Shown: positions 4,999-20,479 of the stretch, piece after piece
How positions within the stretch are numbered: position 1 is the stretch's first letter
Layout of the letters: each line of letters begins with the position of its first letter
NCBI GenBank assembly: GCA_905235355.1
Contig: CAJOLM010000004.1
Location: forward strand, 1-42,080
Length of the DNA: 42,080 nt
Reading direction: 5' to 3'
DNA from: an uncultured Elusimicrobiales bacterium
GTDB lineage: Bacteria > Elusimicrobiota > Elusimicrobia > Elusimicrobiales > Elusimicrobiaceae
Notes under the pieces: model-generated
The model's input: the letters and a program-made list of their open reading frames with translations, nothing else
Told to the model about the DNA's origin: nothing
Databases searched by the model: none
Program-made: the position numbers and the translations under genes

Positions 4999-5193
4999 TT
5001 ATTTCTCTTCGCGTGAGCCAATAAAACTGCCGTCGGCATTACACAAAGAAAATGCACTTAATACCTTAATCAGCTTGCCCAACAACAGGTCGTCCTTGTC
5101 GGTGGGCGTCAGTTTGACAATCAGCGTGGCCACCGATACGGCCCCGCCAATAATTTGTAATACATCTGCTGCGTGTTTCGTAAATACACTCAT
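4999..5193 (-). CDS. Small holin-like membrane protein (64 aa)
   Basis: AGGAG RBS, then MSVFTKHAADVLQIIGGAVSVATLIVKLTPTDKDD... The hydrophobic helix plus TPT.KDD pattern is typical of small phage lysis-region proteins, and it is the last gene of the module. Confidence 0.55.
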   Translation of the reverse strand: MSVFTKHAADVLQIIGGAVSVATLIVKLTPTDKDDLLLGKLIKVLSAFSLCNADGSFIGSREEK

Positions 5194-5206
5194 GTTACTC
5201 TCCTTT

Positions 5207-5395
5207 TTAATAGCGCTCTTGCTCGTCGCGCCAAATCTCCAACCGGTGGGTGCGCTCTTGCAAGTTATTGTATTTATCTTGCTTTTTCTCCAGGCGGGCA
5301 ATATCTTTGCGTATGGCTTTTAGCTCCGCATACAAGCCCCCCACCACAAAGGCCGCCAGGATAATTTCCTTCCACGTAAGCCCCAGCTCTATCAT
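5207..5395 (-). CDS. Small single-TM coiled-coil phage protein (holin/XhlA-like)
   Basis: N-terminal TM followed by IARLEKKQDKYNNLQERTHRLE. ATGA overlap with the upstream gene. Confidence 0.6.
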   Translation of the reverse strand: MIELGLTWKEIILAAFVVGGLYAELKAIRKDIARLEKKQDKYNNLQERTHRLEIWRDEQERY

Positions 5396-5745
5396 ACCGC
5401 CAGCTCCCGTATTTCCGCGCGGATAGTGTCTGCGGCGGACTCCAGCTGCTCCAGCTTATCTTTGTCCGCTTCCGTGCCTGTTCCGGCGCTGAGCGCGCGC
5501 AAGGCGCGTATGGCCTTTAGGTCCAGCTCGTCCAGCTGCGCCTGCAGGTCCGCCAGATGCGCGGCTTTTTCGTCGGCTGCCTGGCGCGCGGCAGCGGCCA
5601 GGGCGGTAAGATATTCGCCCTTGTAAAGCACGTACTCTTCCGCGCTTTCTTCTATGCGGTCAAACGTCATGCACGGCGCATTTTCCAATTCCGCGCGCGT
5701 ATTAGCCGCTAAAACAATTTTTCCATTTTGATATCCCAAAAACAT
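5392..5745 (-). CDS. Putative tail fibre assembly/chaperone protein
   Basis: Follows the fibre gene with an AGGAG RBS. C-terminal L..LD.KAIRALR....L..LE..A..IR.EI pattern is seen in fibre-associated proteins. Confidence 0.55.
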   Translation of the reverse strand: MFLGYQNGKIVLAANTRAELENAPCMTFDRIEESAEEYVLYKGEYLTALAAAARQAADEKAAHLADLQAQLDELDLKAIRALRALSAGTGTEADKDKLEQLESAADTIRAEIRELAV

Positions 5746-5757
5746 ATTTATTCTCCT

Positions 5758-6810
5758 TTAATTAGCTTCTGATACACTTCCCTGCGCATACACAAATTTA
5801 AAAGAATTATATTGCGTTCCAGTGGCATTATATGCAACAGAAAGCACATCCCCTTTCTTAACTGGTACGGTAAAACCAAGAGCCTCACTATTTCTGCTTG
5901 ATGTGGAAATTACATATGTTAGAAAATTATTTCTGCTTGCATTTATATAGGCCCCACTAATACCAGATGTTTTTATAAGCACAAAATAACCATCCGCTGG
6001 CGCCGTATAAGAAGCATTGGTGGCACCTAATGTTAGTTCAATATACCTATCAGACGGCATAGCCAAGCTTGCACCTACTATTTTTCCAGTGTCGGTCAGA
6101 TTGGATAAAGACGTATCAGATTTGGCGTTTAACGCATTTTGTAAATCCGTCTGCTGCGCCAGCGTGCCGCTGATATTTCCCCAAGAGGGTGCTGCTGAAA
6201 TGACATTATTGTTCAGCGTGATATCCGTCCCGGCGGTCAGTGCGTCTTGTTTCGCGGCTAAAGCGGCATCTATATTATCCAAAACACTTTGCACACCGTC
6301 GGCAGCGGCCTGCGCGCTTTGTTGCGCTTGAGCCGCCGCAGTAGCGGCATTTTCCGCCAGCAGCACATCTTCTTCTAACTCCCGGAAATATTCATCAGCT
6401 GTTTTGTCCGCGGAAGTTTCCGTCGGCGATATTTTCAAAGTGCGGCCCAGTTGTTCCGCAAACTCTTGCGCGATAAGCATGGCTTTATCATAGCCTTTTT
6501 CCAATACATCCGGGTCCAAGGCATCCTGTGCGTCAAATGCCGTCTCTTGCACCAGCGGTGTATCACGCATAATCAGCAATCTTTGATTACTCGTCAAGGG
6601 CTCCACCCCGTTGGTCTGCAACGGATAGGTAAGCTTGGACAAATGTGTATCTACACTGTAATCTGTGTTCAGCAATAAGGTGCTGCCATCCTCCTCCACC
6701 AGATATACTTTTAAGTCCTCTTTATCCAAAAATGGAAATGGGATATCCCATTGGGTAGTTTCGCCGTTTCCGGTATACAATACTTTGGTTTGTGTAATAG
6801 ACACCGTCAT
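5758..6810 (-). CDS. Short tail fibre / receptor-binding protein
   Basis: T7 gp17-like N-terminal anchor (YTGNGETTQWDIPFPF...R.TP..Q...LE...DK...IAQE), Ala-rich coil, WGNISGTL..QTDLQNAL linker and a beta-rich tip. Confidence 0.85.
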   Translation of the reverse strand: MTVSITQTKVLYTGNGETTQWDIPFPFLDKEDLKVYLVEEDGSTLLLNTDYSVDTHLSKLTYPLQTNGVEPLTSNQRLLIMRDTPLVQETAFDAQDALDPDVLEKGYDKAMLIAQEFAEQLGRTLKISPTETSADKTADEYFRELEEDVLLAENAATAAAQAQQSAQAAADGVQSVLDNIDAALAAKQDALTAGTDITLNNNVISAAPSWGNISGTLAQQTDLQNALNAKSDTSLSNLTDTGKIVGASLAMPSDRYIELTLGATNASYTAPADGYFVLIKTSGISGAYINASRNNFLTYVISTSSRNSEALGFTVPVKKGDVLSVAYNATGTQYNSFKFVYAQGSVSEAN

Positions 6811-8306
6811 TTTTTATTCTCCTGTAAAGTAAGCAGGCGTTTGAGCTCCTGCGCTGCGTGCAGGCGCGTTTGCATATCCGCCCCCGCAGAAAAAATAAAA
6901 TACTTCGCTTGTTGCATTTCCGCATCAGACAAGTTGTAACTGCGGCATAATTTATCTACGGAGATATCCAGTAAATTATCCCGCAAGTCCCACTGCCCGG
7001 CTTGCCGCAAACAGTATTGCTGCTGCAAATGCAAGTAGTCCCGAGCGGAAATTTTATGCTGCTCCTGCGCCGCGTCAAGTTCCGCACGCGCCAGCCGGCC
7101 TGTTTCTAATTTTTGATACAGCTCATTAAAGGCAGCCGCCGTGTCAGCAGGTTGGGGCGCGGCTTGCATTTCTTGCCATACTTTCTGAGTGTGGGCAAAT
7201 TCTTTTTCAGACGTAAAATTTTGTCTGATAAGCACTTGCGCGCCTGAAAAATCATCCGCTGCTTTGTCTTGCAAAAGCTGTCCAAACATATCCGCCTGCT
7301 GTTTCAAATCCGCCCGGCGCTGCGCCGCCACTTGCATTTGCAAGGCCGCATATAAAGGCTGGCTGTCTGCTTGGTGTGTTTGGGCGGCTTCTTGTGCAAA
7401 CTGCTGCAAGGCAGTGGGATTGATTTCTCCTTTTTCATCCCGGCACTTTTCATAAGCAGACGCGCTTAATTGCCGGGCCAAATGGTCCGCCGTACAAGCC
7501 GTAATTTTCCCTTGCAACAAGCTCTTTTCTTCTTCAGAAAATTGCGCTTGGAAATGATTTAACACCGCCTGTGCCTGAGCCGGCTCCCCGTTCGTTAGCG
7601 AGGTTTCCATATTATGCTGCAAAGCTTGTTTCTGCAGTAATTGTTTTTGCTGCTGCCATTGGATAGCGGTCAAGCCATTGGCTTGTGCCTCGGTTTGCGC
7701 CGCTGCTAAATTGGCCTGCATATATTGTTCCAACACGGACGGAGAGGAAATTAAAGCAGCGGTTTGCACAAAACTGCCCGCTCCCTGATTAAACTGCTCT
7801 TGCCGTGCCGCCTGCTGCTGGCGCGCTTGCACGTCCGCTACTTCCCGACGGATTGCCGCATAATCTTGCGCCAGCAGAGACTGATCTGCCTGCTCCGGAT
7901 GAAGTGCAAGCTGCCTGGCTTGCTGACCAAAAAAATCATCTAATTTCCCCACCGCATCTGACGGAACATCCGGCGCAGCCGGGTTTGTCTCAAATGCTTG
8001 GTCGCGGCTAAAAGCTAGCAACTGCTGACGCGCCGGAGAAGAAAAATTTTCCGACAAAAACACCGCTTCGTCCGTCTGTGCAGCTTTGCTTTGCATGGGC
8101 ACGCTCTCTTTTCCGGACGCTTTGCCGGCAAATTGTTCTTCTATGGCATTTTTTACGTCAACGGCTCCTTGCAATACCTGACCTGCCGTCTCTAAATCAG
8201 TCAAGCGTTTGCTGCGCGAAGATTCCAGCGTAGGCACCGCCAGCTGCACCGTCCGCGCAGTAGGGGCTTGATAAGATACTTGCTGTTGATATGTCGGCAC
8301 TCTCAT
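6807..8306 (-). CDS. Putative internal virion (ejection) protein
   Basis: MRVPTYQQQV N-terminus typical of podoviral gp15-like ejection proteins, Q/A-rich helical composition, and position between the gp14-like and fibre genes. Confidence 0.6.
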   Translation of the reverse strand: MRVPTYQQQVSYQAPTARTVQLAVPTLESSRSKRLTDLETAGQVLQGAVDVKNAIEEQFAGKASGKESVPMQSKAAQTDEAVFLSENFSSPARQQLLAFSRDQAFETNPAAPDVPSDAVGKLDDFFGQQARQLALHPEQADQSLLAQDYAAIRREVADVQARQQQAARQEQFNQGAGSFVQTAALISSPSVLEQYMQANLAAAQTEAQANGLTAIQWQQQKQLLQKQALQHNMETSLTNGEPAQAQAVLNHFQAQFSEEEKSLLQGKITACTADHLARQLSASAYEKCRDEKGEINPTALQQFAQEAAQTHQADSQPLYAALQMQVAAQRRADLKQQADMFGQLLQDKAADDFSGAQVLIRQNFTSEKEFAHTQKVWQEMQAAPQPADTAAAFNELYQKLETGRLARAELDAAQEQHKISARDYLHLQQQYCLRQAGQWDLRDNLLDISVDKLCRSYNLSDAEMQQAKYFIFSAGADMQTRLHAAQELKRLLTLQENKK

Positions 8307-8833
8307 TTATTCCCCCCGAAGACGCTTCCTAATCCCCCCACAAAACCACTGAGCATGGACCCCGCTTGGGCCCATAAGGAACCGCGGGTGCGGCTTGCTT
8401 TTTTATATTGCTTGGCCTGCTGGCGATACTGCGCTGCCTGCGCATTACCCTGCGTACTGATTTCATAAATAGACCGCTGCAAATTACTGGCCAGCATTTC
8501 CTGGTCCAATTGCGCATTCAGACGGCTATTTTTCAAAATTAACTGCGCCGTGGCCGAATTATGCCCCACACCGTTTGAAGCCAACCTGGTTTTTTGTTGG
8601 CCCAAAAGTTGCGAAGCATCTTGCGCCAGCTGGCGGCTTTGGTATGCCGCATCTTGGGCCGTATATTCTATGTTACGGGCCGTAGTTTCTTCCACCTGTT
8701 TGGCTTGTGCTTCCGCCGTGGCCGCCATAGAACGGTAATAATCTCGTTCCGCCCGGTCTGCCCCTAAAGCAGAGGCAGCTGATGAAATAACCGCTCCGCC
8801 TAAGGATATTAATCCTCCTGCTACTCCTCCCAT
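8303..8833 (-). CDS. Internal virion protein, T7 gp14-like
   Basis: Gly/Ala-rich hydrophobic ends, G.Q.T.LASNGV...S.TA motif, and expected position. Confidence 0.75.
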   Translation of the reverse strand: MGGVAGGLISLGGAVISSAASALGADRAERDYYRSMAATAEAQAKQVEETTARNIEYTAQDAAYQSRQLAQDASQLLGQQKTRLASNGVGHNSATAQLILKNSRLNAQLDQEMLASNLQRSIYEISTQGNAQAAQYRQQAKQYKKASRTRGSLWAQAGSMLSGFVGGLGSVFGGNK

Positions 8834-8853: not shown

Positions 8854-9297
8854 TTAAAATATGTACAACTTAAATCGGGTTTCTTTGCCCGCCAAATAAA
8901 ACGGCTCTGCGTGGCATTGGGCCCCTAAATGCCGCAAATAACGTTGCGCGGCTATATACCGTTCATCACATACCGCATACAGTTTGGGATATAAGGTTTT
9001 AAAATATGCCAGCACTTGATGAGAAATCTGATAAAAAACGCGTGGATATTGCGCTACTGCGTTCCCTGTCCATAGCCATACACACGCTTGTTCTCCTAAT
9101 AAACTATCCGGTGCAACCCCCGCAACCGCACACAATTTTCCCTCAATAGATAGCGCAAAAGCTACGCTGCTGCGTTGCAGACATTTGTCTAAACCTTCCG
9201 TGGCAGATAACCGGTAAAATGCCCATAACTCCTGCCCATCTTCTTTCCGCAAATGCGGCACCAGTGCAGATAGATGTTCTTTACAAAGCGGCTCCAA
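8854..9297 (-). CDS. Phage acetyltransferase-like protein (T7 gp13-like), start uncertain
   Basis: L..LVPHLR.ED..EL, AVAGV, VWLWTG, L.AV.D.R..AA.R.L..LG and position after the nozzle. The frame stays open to 9375 but would overlap the divergent gene, so TTG 9297 was used. Confidence 0.7.
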   Translation of the reverse strand: MEPLCKEHLSALVPHLRKEDGQELWAFYRLSATEGLDKCLQRSSVAFALSIEGKLCAVAGVAPDSLLGEQACVWLWTGNAVAQYPRVFYQISHQVLAYFKTLYPKLYAVCDERYIAAQRYLRHLGAQCHAEPFYLAGKETRFKLYIF

Positions 9298-9340
9298 ACT
9301 AATATCATAAGAGGTAGAAGCTCTCTTTACGGAGGTATTT

Positions 9341-10090
9341 ATGTTAATGTTTATTTTGCTGTGTCTATTAGTCATTGCAGTACTCTATGGAGTATTTTTT
9401 CTGTTATTTAAATTGTTGTTTTTATTGTGTAAGAGTAAACGCAATTTCTGGCCGCTTATTTTGTCGGGTATTTGCACGTTATTACTACTGCTCTTGATGG
9501 CAATCGCCGCTTACCAAACGTATCAGCATTTTGCTAAACCCATTATGCCCATTGTGCAAGCCGCCACCGAACGGACGGAACCCATCTATGGAGAAACACT
9601 TTACACGGATCCTCTTTATGGTTTTACCATGACCTTACATGATGGCATGACGGTAGGTGATTGGATCACATTACCTACATCCTCTGTATTGATTGGAATC
9701 GACGTTAACATATTCCTATTGCAAGATAAAACACAACAGGATCAACTACCTGTGTCCGGATTTGCCTTGGTACGTATACCACAAACGACCCCCATGACCG
9801 CGCGCCAGGCAGCAGATGCCTTATTACAACGCTTGCAGCAAATTCCTGCCGAACAGGGACAATTTATCTTAACGCAGGATCCGAAGCCGATTAACGTAGG
9901 TTATCAAGCCGATGGACTACTCGTAACAGGAACGCTGAAAACTGCTACCAGCGACCAAGATTGGCCTGTCACGCTAATTATAGCGACCCACGATCAAGCC
10001 ATGTATGCTTTGGTTGGTCTGAGCAAAAGTGCAGAACAGGCTCTATCAGACACATTATTAAGTTTCCGTTTCGTACAACCCAAGCACTAA
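9341..10090 (+). CDS. Membrane protein (two N-terminal TMs plus extracytoplasmic domain), antisense within the tail genes
   Basis: GGAGG RBS at 9331-9335, 249 aa, own terminator. YTDP.YGF..T...LSFRF pattern is reminiscent of PsbP/DcrB-like folds (weak). Confidence 0.75.
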   Translation: MLMFILLCLLVIAVLYGVFFLLFKLLFLLCKSKRNFWPLILSGICTLLLLLLMAIAAYQTYQHFAKPIMPIVQAATERTEPIYGETLYTDPLYGFTMTLHDGMTVGDWITLPTSSVLIGIDVNIFLLQDKTQQDQLPVSGFALVRIPQTTPMTARQAADALLQRLQQIPAEQGQFILTQDPKPINVGYQADGLLVTGTLKTATSDQDWPVTLIIATHDQAMYALVGLSKSAEQALSDTLLSFRFVQPKH

Positions 10091-10149: not shown

Positions 10150-12753
10150 TTAATCCAACTGCGTCAGAATAGCCAGCACCGTTACAGGCAAGGGTTCTTG
10201 CTGTTTAAACGTCACCGATGGAAAGGTGGAATGAGCAGAAGATACGACCTTGCGCACATCCCGCGTTTGCAAGCTGGCCGCCGTGCCATAGATGCTGATT
10301 GGGGCATAGATTAATTCGTCTAATTTTCCATCTTCTGCACCCACTAAACCGCCGCGGCTGTCTAACATTTTAAGCGTGACTTCTACCAAACGTCGCTTGC
10401 GCCCTTGGCTGCTGCCGTCGTTTAAATCATATTCCACCGGCAGCGTCTGCAAGGTAGACGTATAAGGTAACCCTACATGCGCAGTATAAACCGCACGCGG
10501 TAACGTCACCGAGCCATTGTTTACCGTAAGTCCGTGCACGGGTGTACCGTCCGCAAGAGCGACTACTTCTTGTCCTTCCAAATATTCCAATCCCTCCACT
10601 TGTGTAAAAGGTTCCGTTCTTTTTTTAGATATACTGGCATCTAAAAATACCTGGTCCTCAGGTAATTTGCTGATCAAGCGCGGTAATAATCGTTCAATGT
10701 AACGCGCCCCATTTCGCTCTATTAAGAACCAAGTTTCATCATAGCCGCGCGCCGGGATACTGCATACACTTAAGAAAGTGCCTTGCGTTTCATGACGCGT
10801 CCAGGCGCAAATATCTTCTTGCACCATATAAGTCAAAGACAGCAAACTTCCGTCGTCTAATACACACCAGACTAAATTATCCGGCTCTTGTTGATAACAG
10901 ATGTCACAAATTTCCCGGTTAAAAAATAGGTGCTTGGCACGCAGGGTTAAATCACGCCCGGTATATGATGCGCTGTTATATTCATAATAAAAATCCCGCA
11001 GTACGCCGCCACGCGCTTGGACATATAAAGTGCGGTTGCCGACCACTAGCGGCGGCAACTGGTTGGCTCCGCGTTCCCCTTCTTGCGCCACTTGTACATT
11101 AAACGGAGTGATCGCGCCGGACGCCCCCACACTCCACTCACTTCCCGCCGTAAATACCAGTAATTTTGACCCGACCGCCACGGAATTAATCGCATTTAAT
11201 TTTTTGCTGGACAGCGTCACGCTAATAGCGTCTGAATCTTCCAACGTGCGGTTATAACCGAAGTCTTCATATTCGCCTGTTTTAGAAAACCATAAGGATT
11301 GGGCTTCCCGCCGCGTTCCGGCAAAACCCAGACGGTCTTGATAGAAGAACACGCAACCGGGATATCCGGCATCCGCACTAAAAGAACCTTCTGCCCAATC
11401 TGTCGTCCACGTTTCTTCTGTTCCCAGTTCACGTTCCAGGGTAACTTGCATTTTTCGCGCATTGACATAATGGTCCAATTTCACAATCCCTTCTTGGCTA
11501 AAGGAGTCGGCCTGTAAAATGTATCCCATTTCGCCCGAAATTCCCAAGCAGCGCACACGCAAATAACGCATTTTAGCCGACGGTGCTAAATTGCCCAAAG
11601 TGTTTAAATTATCCTCACTTTGCGCCTTGGTAAAATGTTTTACTTTTTCCCACGTGCTATTATCTTCGGACACTTCCAGTGCAATTTGTCCATACCAAGT
11701 GCCCGTCGTACGCAGACGCCAATCGCCACCCGTTTGAATGACCTTAGAAATCCCTTCATATCCCAAGGTGCCACTTTCATAAGGGCTTTCTATTCGGTGA
11801 TTTAAGGACCACAACGCGCCCACATGACCGGGACGGAACACATCAAAATCGGCTTCCAAGTAAATTTTTTCCGTACCTGGGCTGATGATTTCTCCGGCAT
11901 TTTGTCCGCCACTCATGGTTTGCGTCACAACTAATTTTGGTCCAGACGTTAAACTGGAATAGTAATTAATAACCAGCTGCGCTCCATTGTAGTCGCCCCC
12001 GGTCGCTTGTGGGGATTCAATACGCAGCACACCGCCCTGATTATACGCCACACAGCCCGTAGAACTATACCGCGCATTAAAATACTGCACCACTTCGCTG
12101 ACGTTAAAGCCATATCCGCTGGGATCGTAAAAGCGTTCGCCCCGCCAATATGCCTGAATAAAATAATTGGAATAACTAATCGGCAAGAAAGAAATAGATG
12201 CTTTTACTCCTTCCGATACAACGGTCTCACTGCTGCGCACCACACGCATCTTTTTAGTTTCGTCGGTATTAGCGGGCATAAATGGGCCGTCTTTAATGGT
12301 AGCTGTCTGCAAGGTAAAATATCCGTCGCTGCCGCGCGTTAAAGTACGCGGGGCATAACCGCTATGCACCAAGTACAAGGTCTGCTCATACTGGACATAA
12401 TTGAGCACAGCCAAATCACTTTCATCATAGGGAGACTCAATTTCATAAATATCGCCATTCTGCAACAAAGTCCCCGCGGGGGCATGCACCCGGATATATT
12501 GATGGCCCACTTCTAGGACATAGGCCTCAGACTCACTAATAATAAACGGAATCAGACGGCACTTTTTATCCGCATATTTAGCTGTATTTACATAAGCTGT
12601 ACCCGGACGATTAGAAGCCCCACCTTGTGCATGTATCCAGAAATTGCAGGCAGTTTTAAGCCAACTGCCGTAGCCCTGTACGTCCATGCGGGCATATAAA
12701 TGCGGGCTGACTTCCCCGCCCGAAAAAGTAGGTTGCGTGGTATGTATAGGCAT
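10150..12753 (-). CDS. Tail tubular protein B / nozzle (T7 gp12-like)
   Basis: Q..FSGGEVSP.L.AR.D, N......GGA..RPGT, RLIPF, GYP..V.FYQDRL.FAG, SKTG.Y.DF, AW.RHET.G, GL.YLEG..V..LADG, VGLPY, Q..PLP.TVL. Confidence 0.92.
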   Translation of the reverse strand: MPIHTTQPTFSGGEVSPHLYARMDVQGYGSWLKTACNFWIHAQGGASNRPGTAYVNTAKYADKKCRLIPFIISESEAYVLEVGHQYIRVHAPAGTLLQNGDIYEIESPYDESDLAVLNYVQYEQTLYLVHSGYAPRTLTRGSDGYFTLQTATIKDGPFMPANTDETKKMRVVRSSETVVSEGVKASISFLPISYSNYFIQAYWRGERFYDPSGYGFNVSEVVQYFNARYSSTGCVAYNQGGVLRIESPQATGGDYNGAQLVINYYSSLTSGPKLVVTQTMSGGQNAGEIISPGTEKIYLEADFDVFRPGHVGALWSLNHRIESPYESGTLGYEGISKVIQTGGDWRLRTTGTWYGQIALEVSEDNSTWEKVKHFTKAQSEDNLNTLGNLAPSAKMRYLRVRCLGISGEMGYILQADSFSQEGIVKLDHYVNARKMQVTLERELGTEETWTTDWAEGSFSADAGYPGCVFFYQDRLGFAGTRREAQSLWFSKTGEYEDFGYNRTLEDSDAISVTLSSKKLNAINSVAVGSKLLVFTAGSEWSVGASGAITPFNVQVAQEGERGANQLPPLVVGNRTLYVQARGGVLRDFYYEYNSASYTGRDLTLRAKHLFFNREICDICYQQEPDNLVWCVLDDGSLLSLTYMVQEDICAWTRHETQGTFLSVCSIPARGYDETWFLIERNGARYIERLLPRLISKLPEDQVFLDASISKKRTEPFTQVEGLEYLEGQEVVALADGTPVHGLTVNNGSVTLPRAVYTAHVGLPYTSTLQTLPVEYDLNDGSSQGRKRRLVEVTLKMLDSRGGLVGAEDGKLDELIYAPISIYGTAASLQTRDVRKVVSSAHSTFPSVTFKQQEPLPVTVLAILTQLD

Positions 12754-13935: not shown

Positions 13936-13963
13936 GCGCAGTGGCTGGAAACGCGCCTCTAGT

Positions 13964-13993
13964 AAAGGGTGGGGGCGCGGCAGAGGCGCCCCC
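13964..13993 (-). terminator. Hairpin after the decoration gene, possible terminator of the head operon
   Basis: GGGGGCGC/GCGCCCCC stem just after the stop, with only a weak U-tract. Confidence 0.5.
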
Positions 13994-14001
13994 TGGTGCA
14001 A

Positions 14002-14379
14002 CTACAGATCCACCATTTCGGTGATAAACATAGACAGTTTACCTGCCGTTCCTGTGCCGGTTACGGTGTAATAACCGCGCAGGTAGCGTAACATGCCAGC
14101 AGGCAAAACGGCTTTGACCAAGGTTTTGCCAGCTTTTAAGTCAGCTACTGCAAACGAAGCGGAAAACAATTCCTTTGAGGAAGAGAAATTGCTCGTCTCT
14201 GCTGTTTGCAAGCTTATTTTGACACTAGTGGCTCCGGCAAAGTCCTGGTCTACACGCACCATAAAACCCGCGTGCGTATGGGCATTGCCTTCGGCTTGTT
14301 GATCCACGATATTGGTAGAAGCCGCCGTGGAAGTAACGGTTTGTTCTTCAGACAGCACTAATGTATTATCTAATAACAT
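14002..14379 (-). CDS. Capsid decoration/cement protein (Bbp16-like)
   Basis: MLLD..L.LSE.Q.VT.TAASTN.VD...L.AG......P....RYLR..YTV.G...AGK, directly after the capsid gene. Confidence 0.85.
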   Translation of the reverse strand: MLLDNTLVLSEEQTVTSTAASTNIVDQQAEGNAHTHAGFMVRVDQDFAGATSVKISLQTAETSNFSSSKELFSASFAVADLKAGKTLVKAVLPAGMLRYLRGYYTVTGTGTAGKLSMFITEMVDL

Positions 14380-14396: not shown

Positions 14397-15374
14397 TTAA
14401 GCGACCACATCTTCGGTGTCTTCAATTGCGTCACAGACGTGCACCGGGATTTCGTTAAACGTCATCATCGGGCGGCTGGTGATTTGGTCCGGCGTGTACT
14501 GGACGTTTTGCTTATTGCTGGTCAGTTTGCGCAACGCCGCTTTGACGGTGCGGTTCATGTACCAGACCGGTCTGCCCAAGTTCAAGCTTTGGATGCGTTC
14601 TTCCAGCTCACACATTTGGTCAATCAAGGTGCTGGGTACGTCGGTCACATCAATGTTGCAAATGCGGCCCGCATAGCGCCAATCTTGCACGGCCAGTCCC
14701 AATTTCCACTCAAAATATTCCTTGTAAGCCGGATATTCATTCCCGTCGTTATCCACGTGGTTGACTAAGCCGTGGTCCACGCGTTGGATACCTGCTTTAG
14801 AGCCTTTGGGGAAAAAGGTAAAGATTTTATCGGTGTCCCATACCACGAGGTAAATGGAAGAGTTTTGCCCGTCGGTTTTGCCGCCCGCATCAATGACGTT
14901 GGCGGAGCTTTTGGCGCCGGACAAGGTGTTGTAACGGGCAGCTAGTCCGGTAAAGCGTTCCGGTGTTTCGCCCGCGTTGCCATAAATTAAATTGTGGGCC
15001 ATGGTGTTAGACATACCCGCAATAATGGCTTTGCTCTGCCCGGTGCGGACAGCTTGCAAATTGCCGCCTTTTTCGGCGATTAATTTGTCCACTACAGAAT
15101 AAGCAGACAAGGTGCCATAACCTTCCACCACTACTTTGGTGGTCGCTTTGGCGGGTTCAATGCCTTGATAGGCGCGGCGCCAGGTCCCTTCCGGGATGCC
15201 GGTACGTACGGCATATTCGTGGCCGCTGTCTAAGTTACTTTCCACGACCATGGCATCACCAATAATGTCATTGGATTTGCTCAGCACTTCTGCAATAGCC
15301 AGTTCTTGGCCGGATTCGTCAAATTGTTTGGCATAATCCAGCAAGTTATAATATTTATCTGCAATAATTGCCAT
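14397..15374 (-). CDS. Major capsid protein (BPP-1 Bbp17-like, HK97 fold)
   Basis: L.D.AK..D, I.E.L...N.I..D, VRTG.P...WR...QG, YG.....PE.FTGLA.RY, SIYLV.W, FPKGSKAG, W.LGL.V.DWRY..RI.NID, CDAI..TE.VV. Confidence 0.92.
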   Translation of the reverse strand: MAIIADKYYNLLDYAKQFDESGQELAIAEVLSKSNDIIGDAMVVESNLDSGHEYAVRTGIPEGTWRRAYQGIEPAKATTKVVVEGYGTLSAYSVVDKLIAEKGGNLQAVRTGQSKAIIAGMSNTMAHNLIYGNAGETPERFTGLAARYNTLSGAKSSANVIDAGGKTDGQNSSIYLVVWDTDKIFTFFPKGSKAGIQRVDHGLVNHVDNDGNEYPAYKEYFEWKLGLAVQDWRYAGRICNIDVTDVPSTLIDQMCELEERIQSLNLGRPVWYMNRTVKAALRKLTSNKQNVQYTPDQITSRPMMTFNEIPVHVCDAIEDTEDVVA

Positions 15375-15421: not shown

Positions 15422-16042
15422 CTACTGCGCCTTCCCGTACAACGCTTCAGCGAAGGTTTTATCGCCGGAAGATTTGCTCTGTCCGCCAATGGATTGGTCC
15501 TCACTGATTTGTTGGCTAATTTGATGAAACGTCTTGACGATAACCGGATGGCTGCCAAGCCCTGTTAGTTCTAACAGTTCCCGCAGCTCCGCCCCGCCGA
15601 AACGGTCTGCCGCGTTCAGCGCGCGGGCAATTTCCCGCCCGTAATTCACGCCGAACATTGATTTGGTTTTCTCCGTCCATTTTTGCACGATATCAGCGCG
15701 CGCAGCCTCTTGCGTGTGGTGGTGATCCGCCGCGGCGGAAGCCTCCCATTCCACTAGTTTTTTCACCGTTTCGGCGGGTAATTTCAGCGTAGCTGCCAGT
15801 TGTTTAAAAGAAGCGAAATTCTCCTCGCATCCTTTCAAACTTTCCGGCAGCGTAAGGGCCTTATATTCATCAGACGTTTGCGTATTTTGTTGCAGCCGAT
15901 CTTGGGCGGTATTTTTCTCCCCCTCGCTCGGCCGGCCGGATACTTCGTCAGCCTTTGTCTGTTGTAAATCGTTTGTGGGACTGGAGTTATTTGCCGCCTG
16001 TACGTCTGCGGTTGTTTCTCCGTTAGTGTTGGTATCAAACAT
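15422..16042 (-). CDS. Capsid scaffolding/assembly protein
   Basis: Low-complexity N-terminus, Y..L.LPE, L..TGLG.HP..VK.F..I...ISED, A..LYG C-terminus. Start MFDT after a GAGG RBS. Confidence 0.8.
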   Translation of the reverse strand: MFDTNTNGETTADVQAANNSSPTNDLQQTKADEVSGRPSEGEKNTAQDRLQQNTQTSDEYKALTLPESLKGCEENFASFKQLAATLKLPAETVKKLVEWEASAAADHHHTQEAARADIVQKWTEKTKSMFGVNYGREIARALNAADRFGGAELRELLELTGLGSHPVIVKTFHQISQQISEDQSIGGQSKSSGDKTFAEALYGKAQ

Positions 16043-16343
16043 TGTGCATTTCCTCACTTTCTTGATTAATTTCGTTTTGACCGGAAGTTACTTCTGATAA
16101 ATATTCTGCGTGCATTTGGGACAGCAGATGCGGCGACACTTGGGCAATTTGCTGCAGCAAAAACAGCCCGATACTTTTTTGTCCGCAATGAAATGCGGTG
16201 GCCAACCCGTCGCCGGGAACGAAGCCGTGCTCCTCAATTTGCGCGGCTTGCAAAATCCGCCAGAGTAAACGGCGGCCTTGCGGTAATTTCAGTACGCAAG
16301 CCAAATCAGCTGCGTTGCGTTTTTCTACAAGTCTTTTTTTCAT
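16035..16343 (-). CDS. Conserved podophage protein (Bbp19-like)
   Basis: DL..VL..PQGRR.LWR.L......T.F..G..SIGL, between portal and scaffold. Confidence 0.75.
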   Translation of the reverse strand: MKKRLVEKRNAADLACVLKLPQGRRLLWRILQAAQIEEHGFVPGDGLATAFHCGQKSIGLFLLQQIAQVSPHLLSQMHAEYLSEVTSGQNEINQESEEMHNV

Positions 16344-16439: not shown

Positions 16440-18026
16440 TTAGTGCGCGTCCGGGATGGCGGCGCCGCCTTGCGCCTCTTGTGCGGCCTGCAGTGCTTGC
16501 GCGCGCTGCTGGCGGATACGTTGCGTTTCTTCTTCGGAGCGGAGCATCACGGGCGGCACGCCCAGCAGCCCCAATCCTTCCTCCAGCGCAGCATCAAAAT
16601 CCACTTTGTCTAACACTTCCGGATTTCCCTGCGCCAGGCTGGCGGTAAAAGCAACGCCTTGTGAAATAGCCGCCATGCCGCTTTGTTTTTGTGCCTGCGC
16701 AATCATAGAAACGTATTGGATTTTAAGCTCCTCTCCTTCAATGGATTGCGGCGGCATCGGGATCACTCCGCGGCGCAGCATAATAGCGAAGGTGCGCTCT
16801 ACCAGCGGGTCTAATAATTCATTTTTAAGCCGCTCCAGCACCGGGCCTAACACGAGCATTTTTTCCTGGTGACGCTCGGCCACTTCGGCAGCGGTCATGC
16901 GGCTAAAGTTTTGGCTGCTGAGCATCAAAAACACATCTGCAAAAAATTGCCCGCGAATGGTTTGTTTGACGCGCTCAATACTGGCTTCCAGCGCATTTAA
17001 ATCCACCGGTACTTGATAGGCCGGCTTGACAGCAGCATCCGTCGTGCCGTTGTAGCGTGTTAAACCGCCGGGCAGCAAATTGACTTCGCCCTGCACATTA
17101 GAAGAAACCATCATGGGCGGATTGGTATTTTTATCAAGGGCGACCAGTTTTGTCTTTTGCATTTTCTGCAACATTTTTACGTCGCCCAAAGCCTTCCAAC
17201 CCGGTCCGCGTCCGTAAATGTCAGACGAGTTGCGCACTTCCCACCGCGCCGCAATAACCGGAAATTCCTGATATCCGCCGCGTTTAAGCAGCTGCCCTTG
17301 CGGGGTGAAATAGGCTGACACATATGGCATATGTCCGACGTCTGCCTTACTGTCATCACGCTGCGGATTAGGCATAATTACGTGGCGCACTTTGTACCAA
17401 CCGTTGCGTTTTTCTTTGGCAGCACGCAGCACCTGATCCGGCAAATGCGCCGCGCCAAAACGCTCCAGCAGTTGCTGCGCGGTTAAATCAAATTCACGTC
17501 CAAATGCGTTGATATTGCCTTGGTCGTCCGTACCCAGCACATATTCCCCCGCCGTAAACAAGCGGCAAGAGATGACCTTGTCAAAATCTTCTTCCAACAA
17601 AAAGGCCGCCGTGCCAAACACAGAAATTTCTTGATAAAACCCATGCAATGCATAGTACAGATTAGAGCGCGAAAAAACCTCTTCCATGCGGCGGCGCACT
17701 TCATAAAGCCAATCTTGCACGCCGCTTTGTTTCATCAGTTTTTCGTCAGGCAAACTGAGTTCAAACCAGCTGCGGCTGGGGCTTGTCAGGCCCGATACCA
17801 TACCGGCACTTAATACTTCTACTGCCAGCAGCGGATCGGAATCAATCAGGCTGCGGTGGTCAATTTTGCGCCCGTCGCTGGGGCGGTCCCCTTCAAAAAA
17901 ACCGCGCGTCGGTGCGATATAGCGCGAAAGCTCCTTCCAGCTTTTTTGCCAATCTTGCGCGTCGGTTTTCATACTGTCATATTGCCGGCGAAATGCGTCG
18001 GCAGCGAGTGGATTATTTGTGTTCAT
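16440..18026 (-). CDS. Portal / head-to-tail connector (T7-like, Bbp21-type)
   Basis: W.EL..YI.P.RG.F, L.AG..SGLTSPSR.WF.L, F..SN.Y, FGTA, RW......YGRGPG..ALGD.K.LQ, MTA.EV.ER..EK...LGPVLERL. Confidence 0.95.
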   Translation of the reverse strand: MNTNNPLAADAFRRQYDSMKTDAQDWQKSWKELSRYIAPTRGFFEGDRPSDGRKIDHRSLIDSDPLLAVEVLSAGMVSGLTSPSRSWFELSLPDEKLMKQSGVQDWLYEVRRRMEEVFSRSNLYYALHGFYQEISVFGTAAFLLEEDFDKVISCRLFTAGEYVLGTDDQGNINAFGREFDLTAQQLLERFGAAHLPDQVLRAAKEKRNGWYKVRHVIMPNPQRDDSKADVGHMPYVSAYFTPQGQLLKRGGYQEFPVIAARWEVRNSSDIYGRGPGWKALGDVKMLQKMQKTKLVALDKNTNPPMMVSSNVQGEVNLLPGGLTRYNGTTDAAVKPAYQVPVDLNALEASIERVKQTIRGQFFADVFLMLSSQNFSRMTAAEVAERHQEKMLVLGPVLERLKNELLDPLVERTFAIMLRRGVIPMPPQSIEGEELKIQYVSMIAQAQKQSGMAAISQGVAFTASLAQGNPEVLDKVDFDAALEEGLGLLGVPPVMLRSEEETQRIRQQRAQALQAAQEAQGGAAIPDAH

Positions 18027-18116: not shown

Positions 18117-18293
18117 ATGGGTGGCATGATTTTGATTTTGATATTTGCGGCGTTGCTGGCTTTTCCGGGATTTTACATCATTACGCACGGACTATTTCCG
18201 CGCGGCAGCAAAAAGAAAGCCGCTTGGATTTCCGCCATACTGACGGTGATTTTACTGGTACTGCTGACTACGCTTATGTTAGGCACGCTGTAA
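18117..18293 (+). CDS. 58 aa two-TM membrane protein antisense to the module (below the ORF-track cutoff)
   Basis: GGAGG RBS at 18106-18110. Translation: MGGMILILIFAALLAFPGFYIITHGLFPRGSKKKAAWISAILTVILLVLLTTLMLGTL*. Confidence 0.75.
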   Translation: MGGMILILIFAALLAFPGFYIITHGLFPRGSKKKAAWISAILTVILLVLLTTLMLGTL

Positions 18294-18387
18294 GCGTGCG
18301 CGGGGCCGTGTACCGGTCCACGGGAAGAACTGCTTTTCGGGAAGTGTACGTCTAGAGTACGGCTGCTACTTTTCTACTGACAAGCTA

Positions 18388-18416
18388 ATTATAGCATAAT
18401 TTGTTAGCATTGTCAA
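18388..18416 (-). promoter_or_regulatory. Perfect sigma70 promoter facing the portal-capsid genes
   Basis: Minus strand TTGACA (18416-18411), 17 bp spacer, TATAAT (18393-18388), with extended -10 TG. Confidence 0.8.
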
Positions 18417-18503
18417 GTATTTTTGTTAGTAAAACATATATTTTACGTCGTAAAAATATTTTATAAAAGTTAGTATTTTTTATCAATCCAGATAAAAATA
18501 ATA

Positions 18504-19826
18504 TTAAATCACATCATATTCCGTGCGTGCAAAATGTGGTTGCACAGCGCGCCTTTGCACCGGCAGGGCAAATGTCAGCGCCAGCGCATCTGCCAAATCC
18601 GGGCTGCGCCCACTGCGTGCTTTTAGTGCGTCTTTGCTCTCCAAACGCAAGCGGCCCGCCGGGTCAAAATCATAGCGCAGCCCGCACAAATCCGCCTTCA
18701 GTTCCGGTAATGCCGGCAGTGCGCCGCCCGCTTGCAGCCACTCTTTCAAATTTCCCCACATCTCCGCGCGCTTGTTAGCATATTGCCCGGCTTTAAGCGG
18801 CGACGCTCCAAAATTGATTTCCGTCACTTCAAACCCTAATTGATGCAGCCTATCAATCACGCCGCCGCCGCAACCCGCGTCAATAAATACCGCATCCGGG
18901 CGAAACTCCTCTATGGCTGCTGCCACACGCGCAGCCAGTGTCATGTGATCTATTTTTTGAAACACTTCCGGCGCATACGCCTGCAAACCGCGCCGCTTAA
19001 AAATCACGCTGCGGTCCGCCCCAAAGCGCGCCGGATCTACCCCGATAATTTTAGGCGCGTGCGCCACCTCCGCAGATGCATACGCGCGCCCGCACGCCTC
19101 TGACACTAAACTCATGGGAATAAAAACATCTTCGGCATCAGCGGTAAAATCGCACAAATATTCTTGGCGGAACAAATGCTCCGGCGTACGGCGGCGTATT
19201 TCTTCCAACTCTTGCGCTGCAATCACGCCCGTTTCATCAGCGGGAAAAACCCCGCACCACCAATGCGCCGGGTCTGTTTGCGCAGCTTTGCACGCCTCGT
19301 TATACAGCTCGTAAAATTGATTTTGCCCCTTCGGTGTGCCCATAAACACCACCCAGCCGCCGCGCGAAAGCAACATAGGGCGCACAATTTCGTCATACAC
19401 ATCTTTTTTAATTTGCGCGTACTCGTCCAGGATTACTCCGTCGGCATACGTGCCGCGCAAGGCATCGGGATTATCCGCCCCCAGCAGCCAAATCTTGGCC
19501 CCCGTCGGCAAACTGACGCACAGCTCCGCTTCAGACAGTTTAATCCCGGGCAGCGGCGCCGCAAAGCGTTTGACATAATCCCACGCAATCAACTTTGCCT
19601 GTTTTAAAAAAGGCGCAATATAAAAATACCGCCCCGCAGGACGTGTATTTTGCAGCGCACTTTTCAACAGATGATTGACCGCACACACGGTTTTACCCAT
19701 TTGGCGATGCGTTACCAGTACGCAAAAGCGGTGACTTTCTAGTGCCTCATGGATAAGAGGCTGCGGCGGGCGCGGCTTGTACGGGATAGTCACGGCAGCA
19801 GAGGCGGATTTTTGGGTACGCGGCAT
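18504..19826 (-). CDS. terL: Terminase large subunit
   Basis: IPYKPR..Q, HRQMGKT (Walker A), LLGADNPDALRG...DGVILDEYA (Walker B), GTPKG.N.FY, QEY.CDF, GVDPARFG.D and SPD.ADALALTFA nuclease motifs. Confidence 0.95.
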   Translation of the reverse strand: MPRTQKSASAAVTIPYKPRPPQPLIHEALESHRFCVLVTHRQMGKTVCAVNHLLKSALQNTRPAGRYFYIAPFLKQAKLIAWDYVKRFAAPLPGIKLSEAELCVSLPTGAKIWLLGADNPDALRGTYADGVILDEYAQIKKDVYDEIVRPMLLSRGGWVVFMGTPKGQNQFYELYNEACKAAQTDPAHWWCGVFPADETGVIAAQELEEIRRRTPEHLFRQEYLCDFTADAEDVFIPMSLVSEACGRAYASAEVAHAPKIIGVDPARFGADRSVIFKRRGLQAYAPEVFQKIDHMTLAARVAAAIEEFRPDAVFIDAGCGGGVIDRLHQLGFEVTEINFGASPLKAGQYANKRAEMWGNLKEWLQAGGALPALPELKADLCGLRYDFDPAGRLRLESKDALKARSGRSPDLADALALTFALPVQRRAVQPHFARTEYDVI

Positions 19827-20345
19827 TTATTTCTCCCACCGCACGGAAATAATTTGCGGCGCGGAAAGAGCTTCCTTTCCGTCGGTCCAACCTAAAATAT
19901 TTTTAGCCGTAAACACCGCAAAAGACGACGAATAATTACCGCGCAAACTATTTTGAATTAAAATATCGCCCTGCAAATCGCGCGCTTTTTTGGCAGCTTG
20001 CGCAAAGTCCGGATATGCTTCTTCCCACTGCATCAGCTGCACTTGCGTCACGCCTAAACTGCGCGCAAACGCCGCAAAGGTGGGCAGTTCCGAGGCGGTT
20101 TCCACCAAGGAAATAGAGCCGTCCTTTTTTTGCACTTCCGTCACTCTAAAAGGCGGCACGTCAAAAAACGCCAATAGGCGCGCGGCAAATTCCGGCTGGT
20201 ACGCAAGCTCGCCCACGGCCTTTGCGCGGCGTTTGGCGGGCTTTTTGCGCGTTTTACGCACTGTAGGTACTTTGGACGCACGCTTGGCAGCGTCCGACAC
20301 AGTTTCCTCTACAGGAAACAGTAAATTTTCATTAGACTCACTCAC
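19827..20345 (-). CDS. terS: Terminase small subunit (P22 gp3-like) with a basic N-terminal extension
   Basis: LPTF..FA..LGV....L..W...YP.F..A...A...Q...L....L.G.Y...FAVF.AKN..GW.D. Abuts TerL. GTG start with AGGAG RBS. Confidence 0.8.
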   Translation of the reverse strand: MSESNENLLFPVEETVSDAAKRASKVPTVRKTRKKPAKRRAKAVGELAYQPEFAARLLAFFDVPPFRVTEVQKKDGSISLVETASELPTFAAFARSLGVTQVQLMQWEEAYPDFAQAAKKARDLQGDILIQNSLRGNYSSSFAVFTAKNILGWTDGKEALSAPQIISVRWEK

Positions 20346-20422
20346 GACTACTCCTGCGGGAAGCTATAGTGGCACCGGGCGGTGCACATATAGAAAACGA
20401 AGAAAATAAGGACAAAAAAATA

Positions 20423-20479
20423 TACAAACCGGGAACGTTTGTACAAATATATTATAGCAGATTTTACGGATTTTGTCAA
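20423..20479 (-). promoter_or_regulatory. Perfect sigma70 promoter for terS-terL with a downstream operator-like palindrome
   Basis: Minus strand TTGACA (20479-20474), 17 bp spacer, TATAAT (20456-20451), extended -10 TG. TACAAAC-N7-GTTTGTA at 20423-20443, just after the predicted start site. Confidence 0.78.

What the first reader, a model, noticed from the sequence alone, without database searches (positions are those of the whole stretch)
4999..20479. Candidate podovirus-derived gene transfer agent (domesticated structural-only phage module) in an Elusimicrobiota-like chromosome
Seen in sequence: a compact ~15.3 kb set of uninterrupted packaging, head and short-tail ORFs in BPP-1/T7-like order. 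It is bounded directly by host loci (REP/pilin cluster on the left, pilus operon on the right) and has no integrase, att-like repeat, replication gene, repressor or endolysin. It is split into sub-operons by consensus host promoters, two antisense genes and an AT island, yet the long ORFs (nozzle 867 aa, portal 528 aa, TerL 440 aa) are intact. Established knowledge: GTAs such as RcGTA are ~15 kb structural clusters under host control that lack replication and integration genes; well-characterised ones are mostly siphoviral, and Desulfovibrio Dd1 is a short-tailed exception. Inference: this is a host-maintained podoviral GTA-like particle rather than an inducible prophage.
Basis: partly seen in the sequence, partly recalled or inferred. 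Interest (0 to 1): 0.9.

Follow-up and report, generated by a model that had tools for sequence, protein, structure and literature searches.

The report
Genus-wide tamed podovirus particle genes
A 15.5-kb set of short-tailed-phage head, tail and DNA-packaging genes, with no integration or replication genes, has been inherited intact under selection by about nine in ten species of the gut genus Ca. Avelusimicrobium, and it likely makes gene-transfer-agent-like particles, though no particle or DNA transfer has been shown.

Summary
The epsilon15/BPP-1-type module is almost always single-copy and is syntenic. The capsid gene occurs in 90 of 95 same-genus genomes (83-94% identical), against 2 distant copies in 49 other family members. 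Its tree follows gyrB/gyrA/dnaN (29 of 43 splits shared; shuffled mean 0.2), dN/dS is 0.02-0.18, and the terminase catalytic residues are invariant in 46 of 46. True prophages of this type in the genus keep an integrase, a putative replication gene and a 1,900-2,900-aa ejection protein; the module has none of these. A CI-like repressor occurs in 92 of 95 relatives, beside terS in 44, and probably falls in an assembly gap here. The pilus-operon neighbour is clade-specific. The AT island is conserved rather than decayed. The gp16-like ejection gene is missing in all 46 modules examined and the gp15-like gene in 13, so DNA would need the host ComEC route. GTA function is inferred (about 0.6), and TerS is not truncated as in known GTAs. 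This scan found the same system earlier in another genome, apparently of this genus.

The parts
20451..20479 (-). perfect sigma-70 promoter upstream of terS
   Evidence: 12/12 match; a similar promoter found upstream of terS in 34 of 48 genomes
19827..20345 (-). small terminase, P22 gp3-like; conserved core about 125-130 aa, N-terminal region with HTH retained
   Evidence: phrog_3064 E 2e-18 over profile positions 12-150 of 175; PF16677 E 1e-4, below its cutoff; top fold hit P22 TerS 3p9a, E 0.06, prob 0.96; dN/dS 0.10
18504..19826 (-). large terminase
   Evidence: phrog_2 E 2e-55; 10 ATPase and nuclease residues invariant in 46 of 46; nearest named phage TerLs are HTVC010P-type and epsilon15; dN/dS 0.070
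18388..18416 (-). perfect sigma-70 promoter of the head operon, with CTAACAA in its spacer (candidate operator shared with the repressor's promoter)
   Evidence: promoter found in 48 of 49 genomes; motif in 18 of 48 portal promoters, 14 of 20 repressor promoters, 0 of 34 terS promoters, and 1 of 70 strong promoters of this assembly (this one)
18117..18293 (+). antisense 58-aa hydrophobic protein, kept even where the phage genes were deleted
   Evidence: translation; aligned in 42 of 46 genomes; retained in module-less G022
16440..18026 (-). portal
   Evidence: PF12236 E 2e-158; 33 of 36 same-genus genomes, 0 of 24 in other families; dN/dS 0.067
16035..16343 (-). Bbp19-like head protein
   Evidence: PF25181
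15422..16042 (-). scaffold / endoprotease-like head gene (epsilon15 gp6 position)
   Evidence: phrog_458 E 3e-31; dN/dS 0.18
14397..15374 (-). major capsid protein, BPP-1/epsilon15 type
   Evidence: PF20911; PDB 3j4u and 3j40, E 6e-66 and 5e-62; 90 of 95 genus genomes; dN/dS 0.017; codon usage rank 24 of 1050
14002..14379 (-). Bbp16-like cement protein
   Evidence: PF21190 E 7e-22
13341..14001 (.). conserved AT island before the tail operon, with a conserved AAAATACTT-type motif; likely cis-regulatory
   Evidence: under 25% GC in 45 of 46 genomes; 10-mer AAAATACTTA in 39 of 46 versus 1.0 in block shuffles; roughly the same interval is 51-55% GC in 4 prophages
12753..13340 (-). tail adaptor (tubular protein A)
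   Evidence: phrog_394 E 4e-51; dN/dS 0.078
10150..12753 (-). tail nozzle (tubular protein B)
   Evidence: phrog_376, PF25675; matches in 92 of 95 genus genomes, no internal stops listed; dN/dS 0.075
9341..10090 (+). antisense membrane-anchored protein with a PsbP/DUF1795-like fold (lead only); kept in module-less G022
   Evidence: Atlas features and structure; found in 40 genomes
8854..9375 (-). gp13-like GNAT internal virion protein
   Evidence: phrog_308 E 5e-23; position of epsilon15 gp13
8303..8833 (-). gp14-like internal virion (ejection) protein
   Evidence: phrog_418 E 6e-9
6807..8306 (-). C-terminally shortened gp15-like ejection protein; the giant gp16-like gene that follows it in prophages is absent
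   Evidence: HHalign to residues 1-495 of the prophage's 660-aa protein, prob 100, E 4e-46; 5 of the top 6 PDB fold hits are T7/PhiM1 ejectosome or core proteins but weak, E 0.6-0.9
5758..6810 (-). tail fibre, conserved N-terminus, variable length in relatives (up to 850 aa)
   Evidence: phrog_1640 E 6e-23
5392..5745 (-). 117-aa fibre-accessory-like protein
   Evidence: cluster c7, 14 genomes; no family match
5207..5395 (-). 62-aa hydrophobic holin-like protein
   Evidence: same position as cluster c3 of relatives, one of which hits phrog_689 holin weakly (E 0.002); this copy itself had no PHROG hit
4999..5193 (-). 64-aa holin-like membrane protein, last module gene in this genome
   Evidence: cluster c0 in 40 genomes; phrog_9685 of unknown function; the holin label is inferred from position and hydrophobicity
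3341..4998 (.). left flank: REP-like repeat array, broken pilin copy and GIY-YIG gene, where 39 of 39 relatives have one more small gene after the holin-like gene
20541..32885 (-). right flank: peptidase MA gene and type IV pilus/T2SS operon (neighbour only in this genome's clade)

Best explanation
This is a temperate epsilon15/BPP-1-type podovirus tamed in the ancestor of Ca. Avelusimicrobium and inherited vertically under purifying selection, and it likely builds short-tailed particles that package host DNA and pass it to kin cells as a gene transfer agent. Shown: it lacks the integrase, the putative replication gene and the giant ejection gene of its prophage relatives; head, motor and tail genes are intact and constrained; terS and the head operon have consensus sigma-70 promoters; a CI-like repressor gene is retained, mostly next to terS; most relatives have an endolysin. 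Inferred: the repressor keeps the head promoter off through a shared CTAACAA site; on de-repression, TerS/TerL fill the heads by a P22-like headful mechanism with chromosomal DNA, because the locus can neither excise nor amplify; holin and endolysin release the particles; the variable fibre binds kin cells; without the gp16-like protein (and in 13 of 46 genomes also without gp15) the particle would deliver DNA only to the periplasm or cell surface, and host ComEC/DprA would finish uptake, as in RcGTA.
For: Prevalence: capsid 90 of 95; TerL 89 of 95; nozzle 92 of 95; GP7 family 59 of 62 genus genomes at least 90% complete, versus 0 of 57 in other families. Congruence on 46 genomes: 29 of 43 splits shared, shuffled mean 0.23 (max 3), patristic r 0.86. 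The module is monophyletic against prophage copies in 4 of 4 gene trees, support 0.94-0.999. dN/dS 0.017-0.18, versus gyrB 0.027. TerL active sites are invariant in 46 of 46. Capsid codon usage ranks 24 of 1050. No hit to prophage integrase, replication or giant ejection proteins in 164 module and flank loci, while 13 of 13 control loci hit. The nozzle-to-fibre interval is 0.5-3.6 kb in 46 modules versus 8.0-11.6 kb in 4 prophages. Depth is not raised over the module. The 7 IMG/VR hits are only 64-67% identical in the capsid. Where the module was lost it decayed by deletion (G022, G064). ComEC and DprA are present in 5 of 5 genomes. RcGTA DNA needs ComEC/ComF to pass from the periplasm (PMC12378983, passage). 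A podovirus-like GTA is already known in a gut anaerobe (FpGTA; PMC12946183, section 9).
Against: No particle, packaged DNA, transcript or transfer was observed. [quoted passage not shown] The capsid belongs to a family that packages about 40 kb (epsilon15 is 39.7 kb), enough to hold the whole 15.5-kb module unless the heads have shrunk. ComEC and DprA are widespread (10 and 11 of 14 controls) and also present in module-less G022, so they discriminate little. This genome and 9 of 39 relatives lack an endolysin in the locus. Four strongly supported module splits conflict with the host tree. The candidate operator is absent from 30 of 48 portal promoters.
Confidence: 0.6

Rival explanations
1. 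Domesticated DNA-filled particles that do not transfer genes: PBSX-like killer particles or decoys (PBSX recalled, not tested). The variable fibres would pick competitor strains, and the antisense membrane genes would give immunity.
For: Fibre length varies widely. The endolysin has been swapped among three families. The ejection genes have been lost stepwise, down to a single ~160-aa gene in 10 genomes, which is hard to square with injection. Six of 28 repressors keep an Ala-Gly site and Ser/Lys dyad, suggesting SOS induction.
Against: The gp16-like protein that would reach the inner membrane is missing in 46 of 46, leaving no evident killing device. No toxin-like gene was annotated in the module. 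The antisense genes survive in G022 without the particle genes, so they look host-useful on their own.
Confidence: 0.2
2. A fixed lateral-transduction device: the untruncated P22-like TerS starts at a pac site in or near the module, and successive ~40-kb headfuls carry the module and downstream chromosome preferentially, so packaging is biased rather than random.
For: P22-like TerS with an intact N-terminal region. P22 packages headfuls from a pac site (PMC11260489, abstract start in listing). The capsid family is large enough for the module. The conserved AT island could be a DNA signal.
Against: No block of conserved third codon positions in terS that would mark a conserved pac site. The module tree follows the host, so it has not spread between species.
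Confidence: 0.12
3. An ordinary or decaying defective prophage, fixed by chance or by linkage to useful antisense genes.
For: Related complete prophages with integrase exist in the genus, two of them beside tRNA-Ser and one beside tRNA-Leu. Antisense genes and repressor sites before terS and the portal also occur in epsilon15. The module is lost in G022 and G078, its head is deleted in G064, TerL is frameshifted in G017 and the capsid is split in G118.
Against: Genes are intact in about 90 species although synonymous divergence between sister pairs already reaches or exceeds 1; dN/dS is 0.02-0.18. G022 shows that the phage genes can be deleted while the antisense genes stay, so linkage does not explain retention. 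No integrase or replication gene lies nearby.
Confidence: 0.04
4. Only the shell matters: an encapsulin-like nanocompartment built from the capsid protein.
For: The capsid is as conserved as GyrB (median pairwise identity 88% for both) while the portal (64%) and nozzle (51%) drift faster; it has highly-expressed-gene codon usage.
Against: Terminase, portal, adaptor and nozzle are all retained with dN/dS at most 0.10 and invariant motor residues. Prophage capsids score similarly in codon usage.
Confidence: 0.04

Closest known systems
FpGTA of Faecalibacterium prausnitzii (PMC12946183; passages and section 9 read)
   Same: Genus-wide chromosomal terS-terL-portal-scaffold-capsid operon with short-tail homologues and lysis genes in a gut anaerobe; the paper calls it the first podovirus-like GTA-like element.
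   Different: FpGTA is in a Gram-positive host, has two operons 125 kb apart and a TerS without an obvious DNA-binding domain, and its 40-nm particles with ~9-kb DNA were shown. This module is epsilon15/BPP-1-type, in Elusimicrobiota, nested among that family's own prophages, and is untested. Sequence homology to FpGTA was not tested.
RcGTA and RcGTA-like viriforms (PMC9662315, PMC6854486, PMC12378983; passages)
   Same: About 15-kb structural cluster without replication or integration genes, vertical co-divergence with the host, probable reliance on ComEC-type uptake.
   Different: RcGTA is siphovirus-derived (recalled), with a truncated TerS and CtrA control. Here the tail is podoviral, TerS is not truncated, and the likely switch is the ancestor's own CI-like repressor.
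Temperate podoviruses epsilon15 (AY150271) and BPP-1 (PDB 3j4u), and the Elusimicrobiaceae prophages G010:C9, G105:C2 and G110:C4
   Same: Same head and tail gene order and homologous capsid, cement, portal, adaptor, nozzle, gp13 and gp14; the G105:C2 prophage capsid is 74% identical.
   Different: The prophages carry an integrase, a putative replication gene and large ejection proteins (1,898-2,882 aa in four prophages), and occur patchily at other sites. The module lacks these, sits at one site, and has gained consensus promoters and a conserved AT island.
Desulfovibrio Dd1 (short tail recalled; its predicted TerS Ddes_0720 seen in the table of PMC6854486)
   Same: GTA outside Alphaproteobacteria with a 125-aa TerS, similar in size to this TerS core.
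   Different: No sequence comparison was made; different phylum.

Membership tests
Gene transfer agent (six features of PMC9662315) | Caudoviricete-derived particle proteins | tested here: met
   PHROG, Pfam and PDB matches for TerS, TerL, portal, capsid, adaptor, nozzle and fibre
Gene transfer agent (six features of PMC9662315) | Mostly encapsidates random host DNA (experimental) | not testable with these tools
   No particle data; the motor is intact; no elevated depth
Gene transfer agent (six features of PMC9662315) | Fully endogenised in the host genome, often across several loci | tested here: met
   No integrase or replication homologue in 164 loci; host flanks on both sides; terS-terL and the head genes on different contigs in G036 and G069, and the repressor about 71-74 kb away in four genomes. 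The genomic part is met; the experimental part was not done.
Gene transfer agent (six features of PMC9662315) | Genome cannot be fully packaged because the head is too small | tested here: inconclusive
   The capsid family packages about 40 kb in epsilon15, more than the 15.5-kb module. Scaffold ORFs are mostly shorter (about 170-220 aa) than in the close prophage and IMG/VR relatives (238-263 aa, one 313), a weak hint of smaller heads.
Gene transfer agent (six features of PMC9662315) | Vertical inheritance and co-diversification with the host | tested here: met
   29 of 43 splits shared, 21 of 28 strong host splits recovered, r 0.86, 4 local conflicts; monophyly against prophages
Gene transfer agent (six features of PMC9662315) | Packaged DNA is delivered to other cells (experimental) | not testable with these tools
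   Ejection genes reduced; ComEC and DprA present in 5 of 5
GTA-type small terminase (PMC6854486) | Lacks the N-terminal DNA-binding (HTH) domain | tested here: not met
   Matches profile positions 12-150 of 175 of phrog_3064; helices 90-97 and 101-110 of the model resemble an HTH; aligns over about 120-130 columns to P22 TerS
Rhodogtaviriformidae (RcGTA-like) | Homology to the RcGTA structural cluster (long-tail genes) | tested here: not met
   All structural matches are to epsilon15/BPP-1-type podoviral families; no direct comparison with RcGTA proteins was made
Inducible temperate prophage (epsilon15/BPP-1-like) | Integrase and att sites | tested here: not met
   present in true prophages of the genus
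Inducible temperate prophage (epsilon15/BPP-1-like) | Replication genes and a full ejection gene set | tested here: not met
   longest ORF between nozzle and fibre is 538 aa in 46 modules versus 1,898-2,882 aa in 4 prophages; no hit to the prophages' putative replication proteins
Inducible temperate prophage (epsilon15/BPP-1-like) | CI-like repressor | tested here: met
   92 of 95 relatives; cleavage motifs intact in 6 of 28; not found in this assembly, where its usual neighbour ends contig C78
PBSX-like defective killer phage (features recalled) | Kills related strains; packages host DNA without injecting it | not testable with these tools
   No assay possible

The most novel reading that the evidence does not exclude
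This is the first gene transfer agent of the phylum Elusimicrobiota and an independent taming of an epsilon15/BPP-1-type podovirus. It shed its trans-envelope ejection machine step by step (gp16 everywhere, then gp15 and gp13 in some clades) and handed DNA entry to the host's pilus/ComEC competence system. It is run by the ancestor's own repressor, which lost RecA cleavage in most lineages, and by a newly gained AT-rich control element. Its wild prophage cousins still live in the same genus, so every step of the domestication can be reconstructed.
Probability: 0.4. Interest if true: 0.87.

Novelty: new variant of a known kind. Interest (0 to 1): 0.72.

Why it matters
New GTAs are hard to tell from dead prophages by sequence alone (PMC12946183, passage). 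Here about 90 species and co-resident wild relatives give an unusually clean case of phage domestication in a phylum with no GTA report in my searches. It shows which podoviral parts a host keeps (head, motor, tail, lysis, repressor) and which it drops (integrase, replication, ejection machine). If the particles transfer DNA, small-genome gut bacteria of this genus have a heritable gene-exchange device. The loss of gp16 and gp15 makes a long-open question testable: how can a short-tailed particle deliver DNA without an ejectosome? If they do not transfer DNA, a DNA-packaging virion kept for another host purpose would be as surprising.

Tried and rejected
Expression: no RNA holder was listed, so nothing is concluded. 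Read depth: examined only for 14000-30000 and only from contigs; X1 may be the source sample; runs X3 and X4 cover the stretch too thinly to use. pac site: no synonymous-site conservation block in terS. Small ~100-aa gene beside the repressor: no Pfam or PHROG family, and the Atlas look-up returned no result; its role is open. Repressor as host LexA: rejected, because a separate 203-263-aa S24 protein exists in 5 of 5 genomes, including both module-less ones; recA follows directly on another gene, so no SOS box could be derived. Giant ejection gene relocated elsewhere: not found with one prophage query in 5 genomes, one marginal hit at E 2e-4. Endolysin in this genome: the apparent hit is an overlapping-frame artefact, and three family searches were blank. 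Fold search of the 499-aa protein gave no PDB hit at E<=0.001. One search compared the wrong protein and is not used. Headful packaging of epsilon15 could not be confirmed in the library. Literature: searches found no paper describing this element (0 papers with Elusimicrobiota + phage + GTA since 2020); most subscription journals are not covered and no supplements were read. The host tree rests on three adjacent genes because motif searches did not find full rpoB/rpoC in this assembly.

Full report
OBSERVATION. The window is the whole contig C4 of an 84%-complete, 1.26-Mb assembly. On the minus strand, 20345-4999 reads terS, terL, portal, Bbp19, scaffold, capsid, Bbp16 cement, adaptor, nozzle, gp13-like, gp14-like, a 499-aa gene, fibre, a 117-aa gene and two small holin-like genes, all open. 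The capsid's solved relatives are 3j4u and 3j40, labelled BPP-1 and epsilon15 in the epsilon15 record, whose gp1-gp14 order is the same. The contig has no tRNA, none of the assembly's 4 integrase hits, and no endolysin by three families. The terS and portal promoters are 2 of the 3 perfect TTGACA-N17-TATAAT sites in the assembly. The AT island is its most AT-rich 350-nt window.

DISTRIBUTION. Records carrying this capsid at 83-94% identity are mostly titled Elusimicrobiales, Elusimicrobiaceae, Elusimicrobium or Ca. Avelusimicrobium. The portal is in 33 of 36 same-genus genomes and 0 of 24 genomes of other families. The capsid is in 90 of 95 same-genus genomes and 2 of 49 other family members, those two at 31-34%. 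TerL matches 89 of 95 and the nozzle 92 of 95; these counts include a few contig-edge fragments, and no internal stops are listed. With the Pfam model and genomes at least 90% complete, 59 of 62 genus genomes score, against 0 of 57 in other families. Gene order is constant in the roughly 50 loci I fetched. At the lysis end a pilin-like gene follows within 3 kb in 28 of 34 loci with enough flank, and the O-antigen-ligase gene follows in 15 of 22. A tRNA-Thr lies in the same locus in 14 of 18, a possible old att site (inferred). The pilus operon is upstream only in the clade of this genome.

INHERITANCE AND SELECTION. I used the 46 genomes for which I held TerL, capsid, adaptor, nozzle and gyrB. 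The five-gene module tree shares 29 of 43 splits with the dnaN+gyrB+gyrA tree (shuffled labels: mean 0.23, max 3), recovers 21 of 28 strong host splits, and has patristic r 0.86; 4 strong splits conflict, all local. Nei-Gojobori dN/dS, taken over those of 13 sister pairs with 0.05<dS<1.5 (5-13 pairs per gene), was: capsid 0.017, portal 0.067, TerL 0.070, nozzle 0.075, adaptor 0.078, TerS 0.10, scaffold 0.18, gyrB 0.027. Ten TerL ATPase and nuclease residues are invariant in 46 of 46. Capsid codon usage ranks 24 of 1050 genes against 7 highly expressed references, though prophage capsids score similarly. The losses fall in different clades. G022 has the same site with the phage genes removed and both antisense genes kept; G064 has an in-contig deletion from portal residue 54 to cement residue 79; G017 has a frameshifted TerL and its head genes fall in a contig gap; in G078 none of the queries matched. 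So the module decays when released, and linkage to the antisense genes does not explain why about 90 species keep it. Depth over the module is not raised (X1 10-18 versus 19-34 on the flank; X2 4-9 versus 1-8; per-contig figures, X1 possibly the source).

COMPARISON WITH WILD RELATIVES. The genus also holds ordinary prophages of the same family at other sites. Five tested have an integrase, beside tRNA-Ser in two and tRNA-Leu in one. They carry a putative replication gene (weak HTH match only) and a giant ejection protein. They fall outside the module clade in 4 of 4 gene trees. Their integrases, putative replication proteins and giant proteins hit none of 164 module and flank loci (2.8 Mb, overlapping) but 13 of 13 control loci. 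The 7 IMG/VR hits are 64-67% identical in the capsid; five of the six inspected run into a large ORF after the ~600-660-aa gene. The nozzle-to-fibre interval is 8.0-11.6 kb in 4 prophages and 0.5-3.6 kb in 46 modules. No module ORF there exceeds 538 aa, 13 of 46 lack the ~400-540-aa gene, and 10 keep only one ~160-190-aa ORF. The 499-aa protein is a shortened orthologue of the prophage's 660-aa protein (prob 100), and its best, weak, fold hits are T7 and PhiM1 ejectosome or core proteins. T7 gp16 is described as degrading peptidoglycan to allow complete wall penetration (PMC11440229, one passage); equating the lost giant with gp16 rests on position and size.

REGULATION AND LYSIS. An HTH-S24 CI-like repressor occurs in 92 of 95 relatives and is missing from G022, G078 and G032 and from this assembly. 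By my count it lies within about 4 kb upstream of terL in 44. With a small ~100-aa gene it moved about 71-74 kb away in four close relatives, where it sits next to the gene whose homologue ends contig C78 here, so its absence here is probably an assembly gap. It is not the host LexA. Six of 28 full-length copies keep the Ala-Gly site and Ser/Lys dyad, all in the clade that lost gp15. A CT(A/T)ACAA motif sits in the spacer of 14 of 20 repressor promoters and 18 of 48 portal promoters, 0 of 34 terS promoters, and 1 of 70 strong promoters of this assembly. Epsilon15 likewise has annotated repressor sites before terS and the portal. The AT island is conserved (45 of 46 under 25% GC; AAAATACTTA in 39 of 46 versus 1.0 expected) and absent from 4 prophages checked roughly. 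An endolysin of one of three families lies beside the holin-like genes in 30 of 39 relatives; two of the families were confirmed by PHROG. This genome lacks both the endolysin and the last small gene, with a repeat/GIY-YIG insertion at that place.

MECHANISM AND RIVALS. Domestication I put at about 0.95. For function I commit to a gene transfer agent (0.6). An intact, constrained DNA motor in a locus that can neither excise nor amplify should package chromosome, and a tail without the large ejection proteins should need host uptake. ComEC and DprA are present in 5 of 5 genomes but are common; RcGTA uses that route (PMC12378983, passage). Against this: TerS resembles full-length P22 gp3, unlike truncated GTA TerS proteins (PMC6854486 and PMC11841831, passages), and the head may be large enough for the module itself. 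The rivals are non-transferring killer or decoy particles (0.2), pac-biased lateral transduction (0.12; no pac signature), a decaying prophage (0.04) and a capsid-only compartment (0.04).

KNOWN SYSTEMS AND NOVELTY. Of the six GTA features in PMC9662315 (passages), three are met, one is inconclusive and two need experiments, so it is filed as a GTA candidate and not a member. A podovirus-like GTA is already in print (FpGTA, PMC12946183, passages and section 9), and PMC7947584 (passages) ties RcGTA to headful packagers. Searches found no description in Elusimicrobiota. This scan's own notes report the same system in another gut Elusimicrobiaceae genome (e1-5235008) and analogous podoviral clusters in Alphaproteobacteria, Clostridia and a sulfate reducer; these are unchecked AI notes, and I did not test homology to those clusters. 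Verdict: a new variant of a known kind, interest 0.72.

Noticed in passing
L043:2784-17572, L037:11115-17936, L066:9836-18998 (between terL and portal in relatives): Tandem arrays of 1-11 paralogous ~360-500-aa proteins with signal-peptide-like N-termini and no Pfam or PHROG family for the one copy scanned sit between terL and the portal in 13 genomes; one copy also survives in module-less G022.
   Followed up: partly
window 3341-4998 and 37793-37867: REP-like palindromic repeat array with a GIY-YIG gene (4478-4831) and a broken pilin copy; the same repeat recurs beside another pilin gene 33 kb away.
   Followed up: no
L293:5322-10140 (G022:C13): Clean deletion of all phage genes, leaving the two antisense membrane genes and a trace of the repressor C-terminus, which suggests these two genes serve the host on their own.
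   Followed up: partly
L079:17560-17856 and homologues: Conserved ~100-aa gene (motif LEN.IF.RAA) that travels with the repressor and directly precedes terS in several genomes; no family match; a candidate activator or antirepressor.
   Followed up: partly
L272:15481, L274:14868, L276:3058, L280:10319: A 462-463-aa gene is inserted between the repressor and the small gene in many genomes; not annotated here.
   Followed up: no
L050:10157-18682; L095:1711-10359: The giant virion proteins of the genus's prophages carry polyvalent-protein domains (PBECR5, LPD22; LPD5, LPD1).
   Followed up: no
L049 and L091-L094 (G010:C9, G105:C2, G110:C4): Prophage mosaicism: the module's capsid is closest to the G105 prophage (74%) but its TerL to the G110 prophage (60%), and the prophage TerS proteins align poorly (15-19%) with the module's.
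   Followed up: partly
L187, L188, L200, L216: Contigs with this capsid at 86-91% sit in records titled Eggerthellaceae, Duodenibacillus, Muribaculaceae or Spirochaetes; probably mislabelled titles rather than transfer, as at least two share contig length and position with genus members.
   Followed up: no
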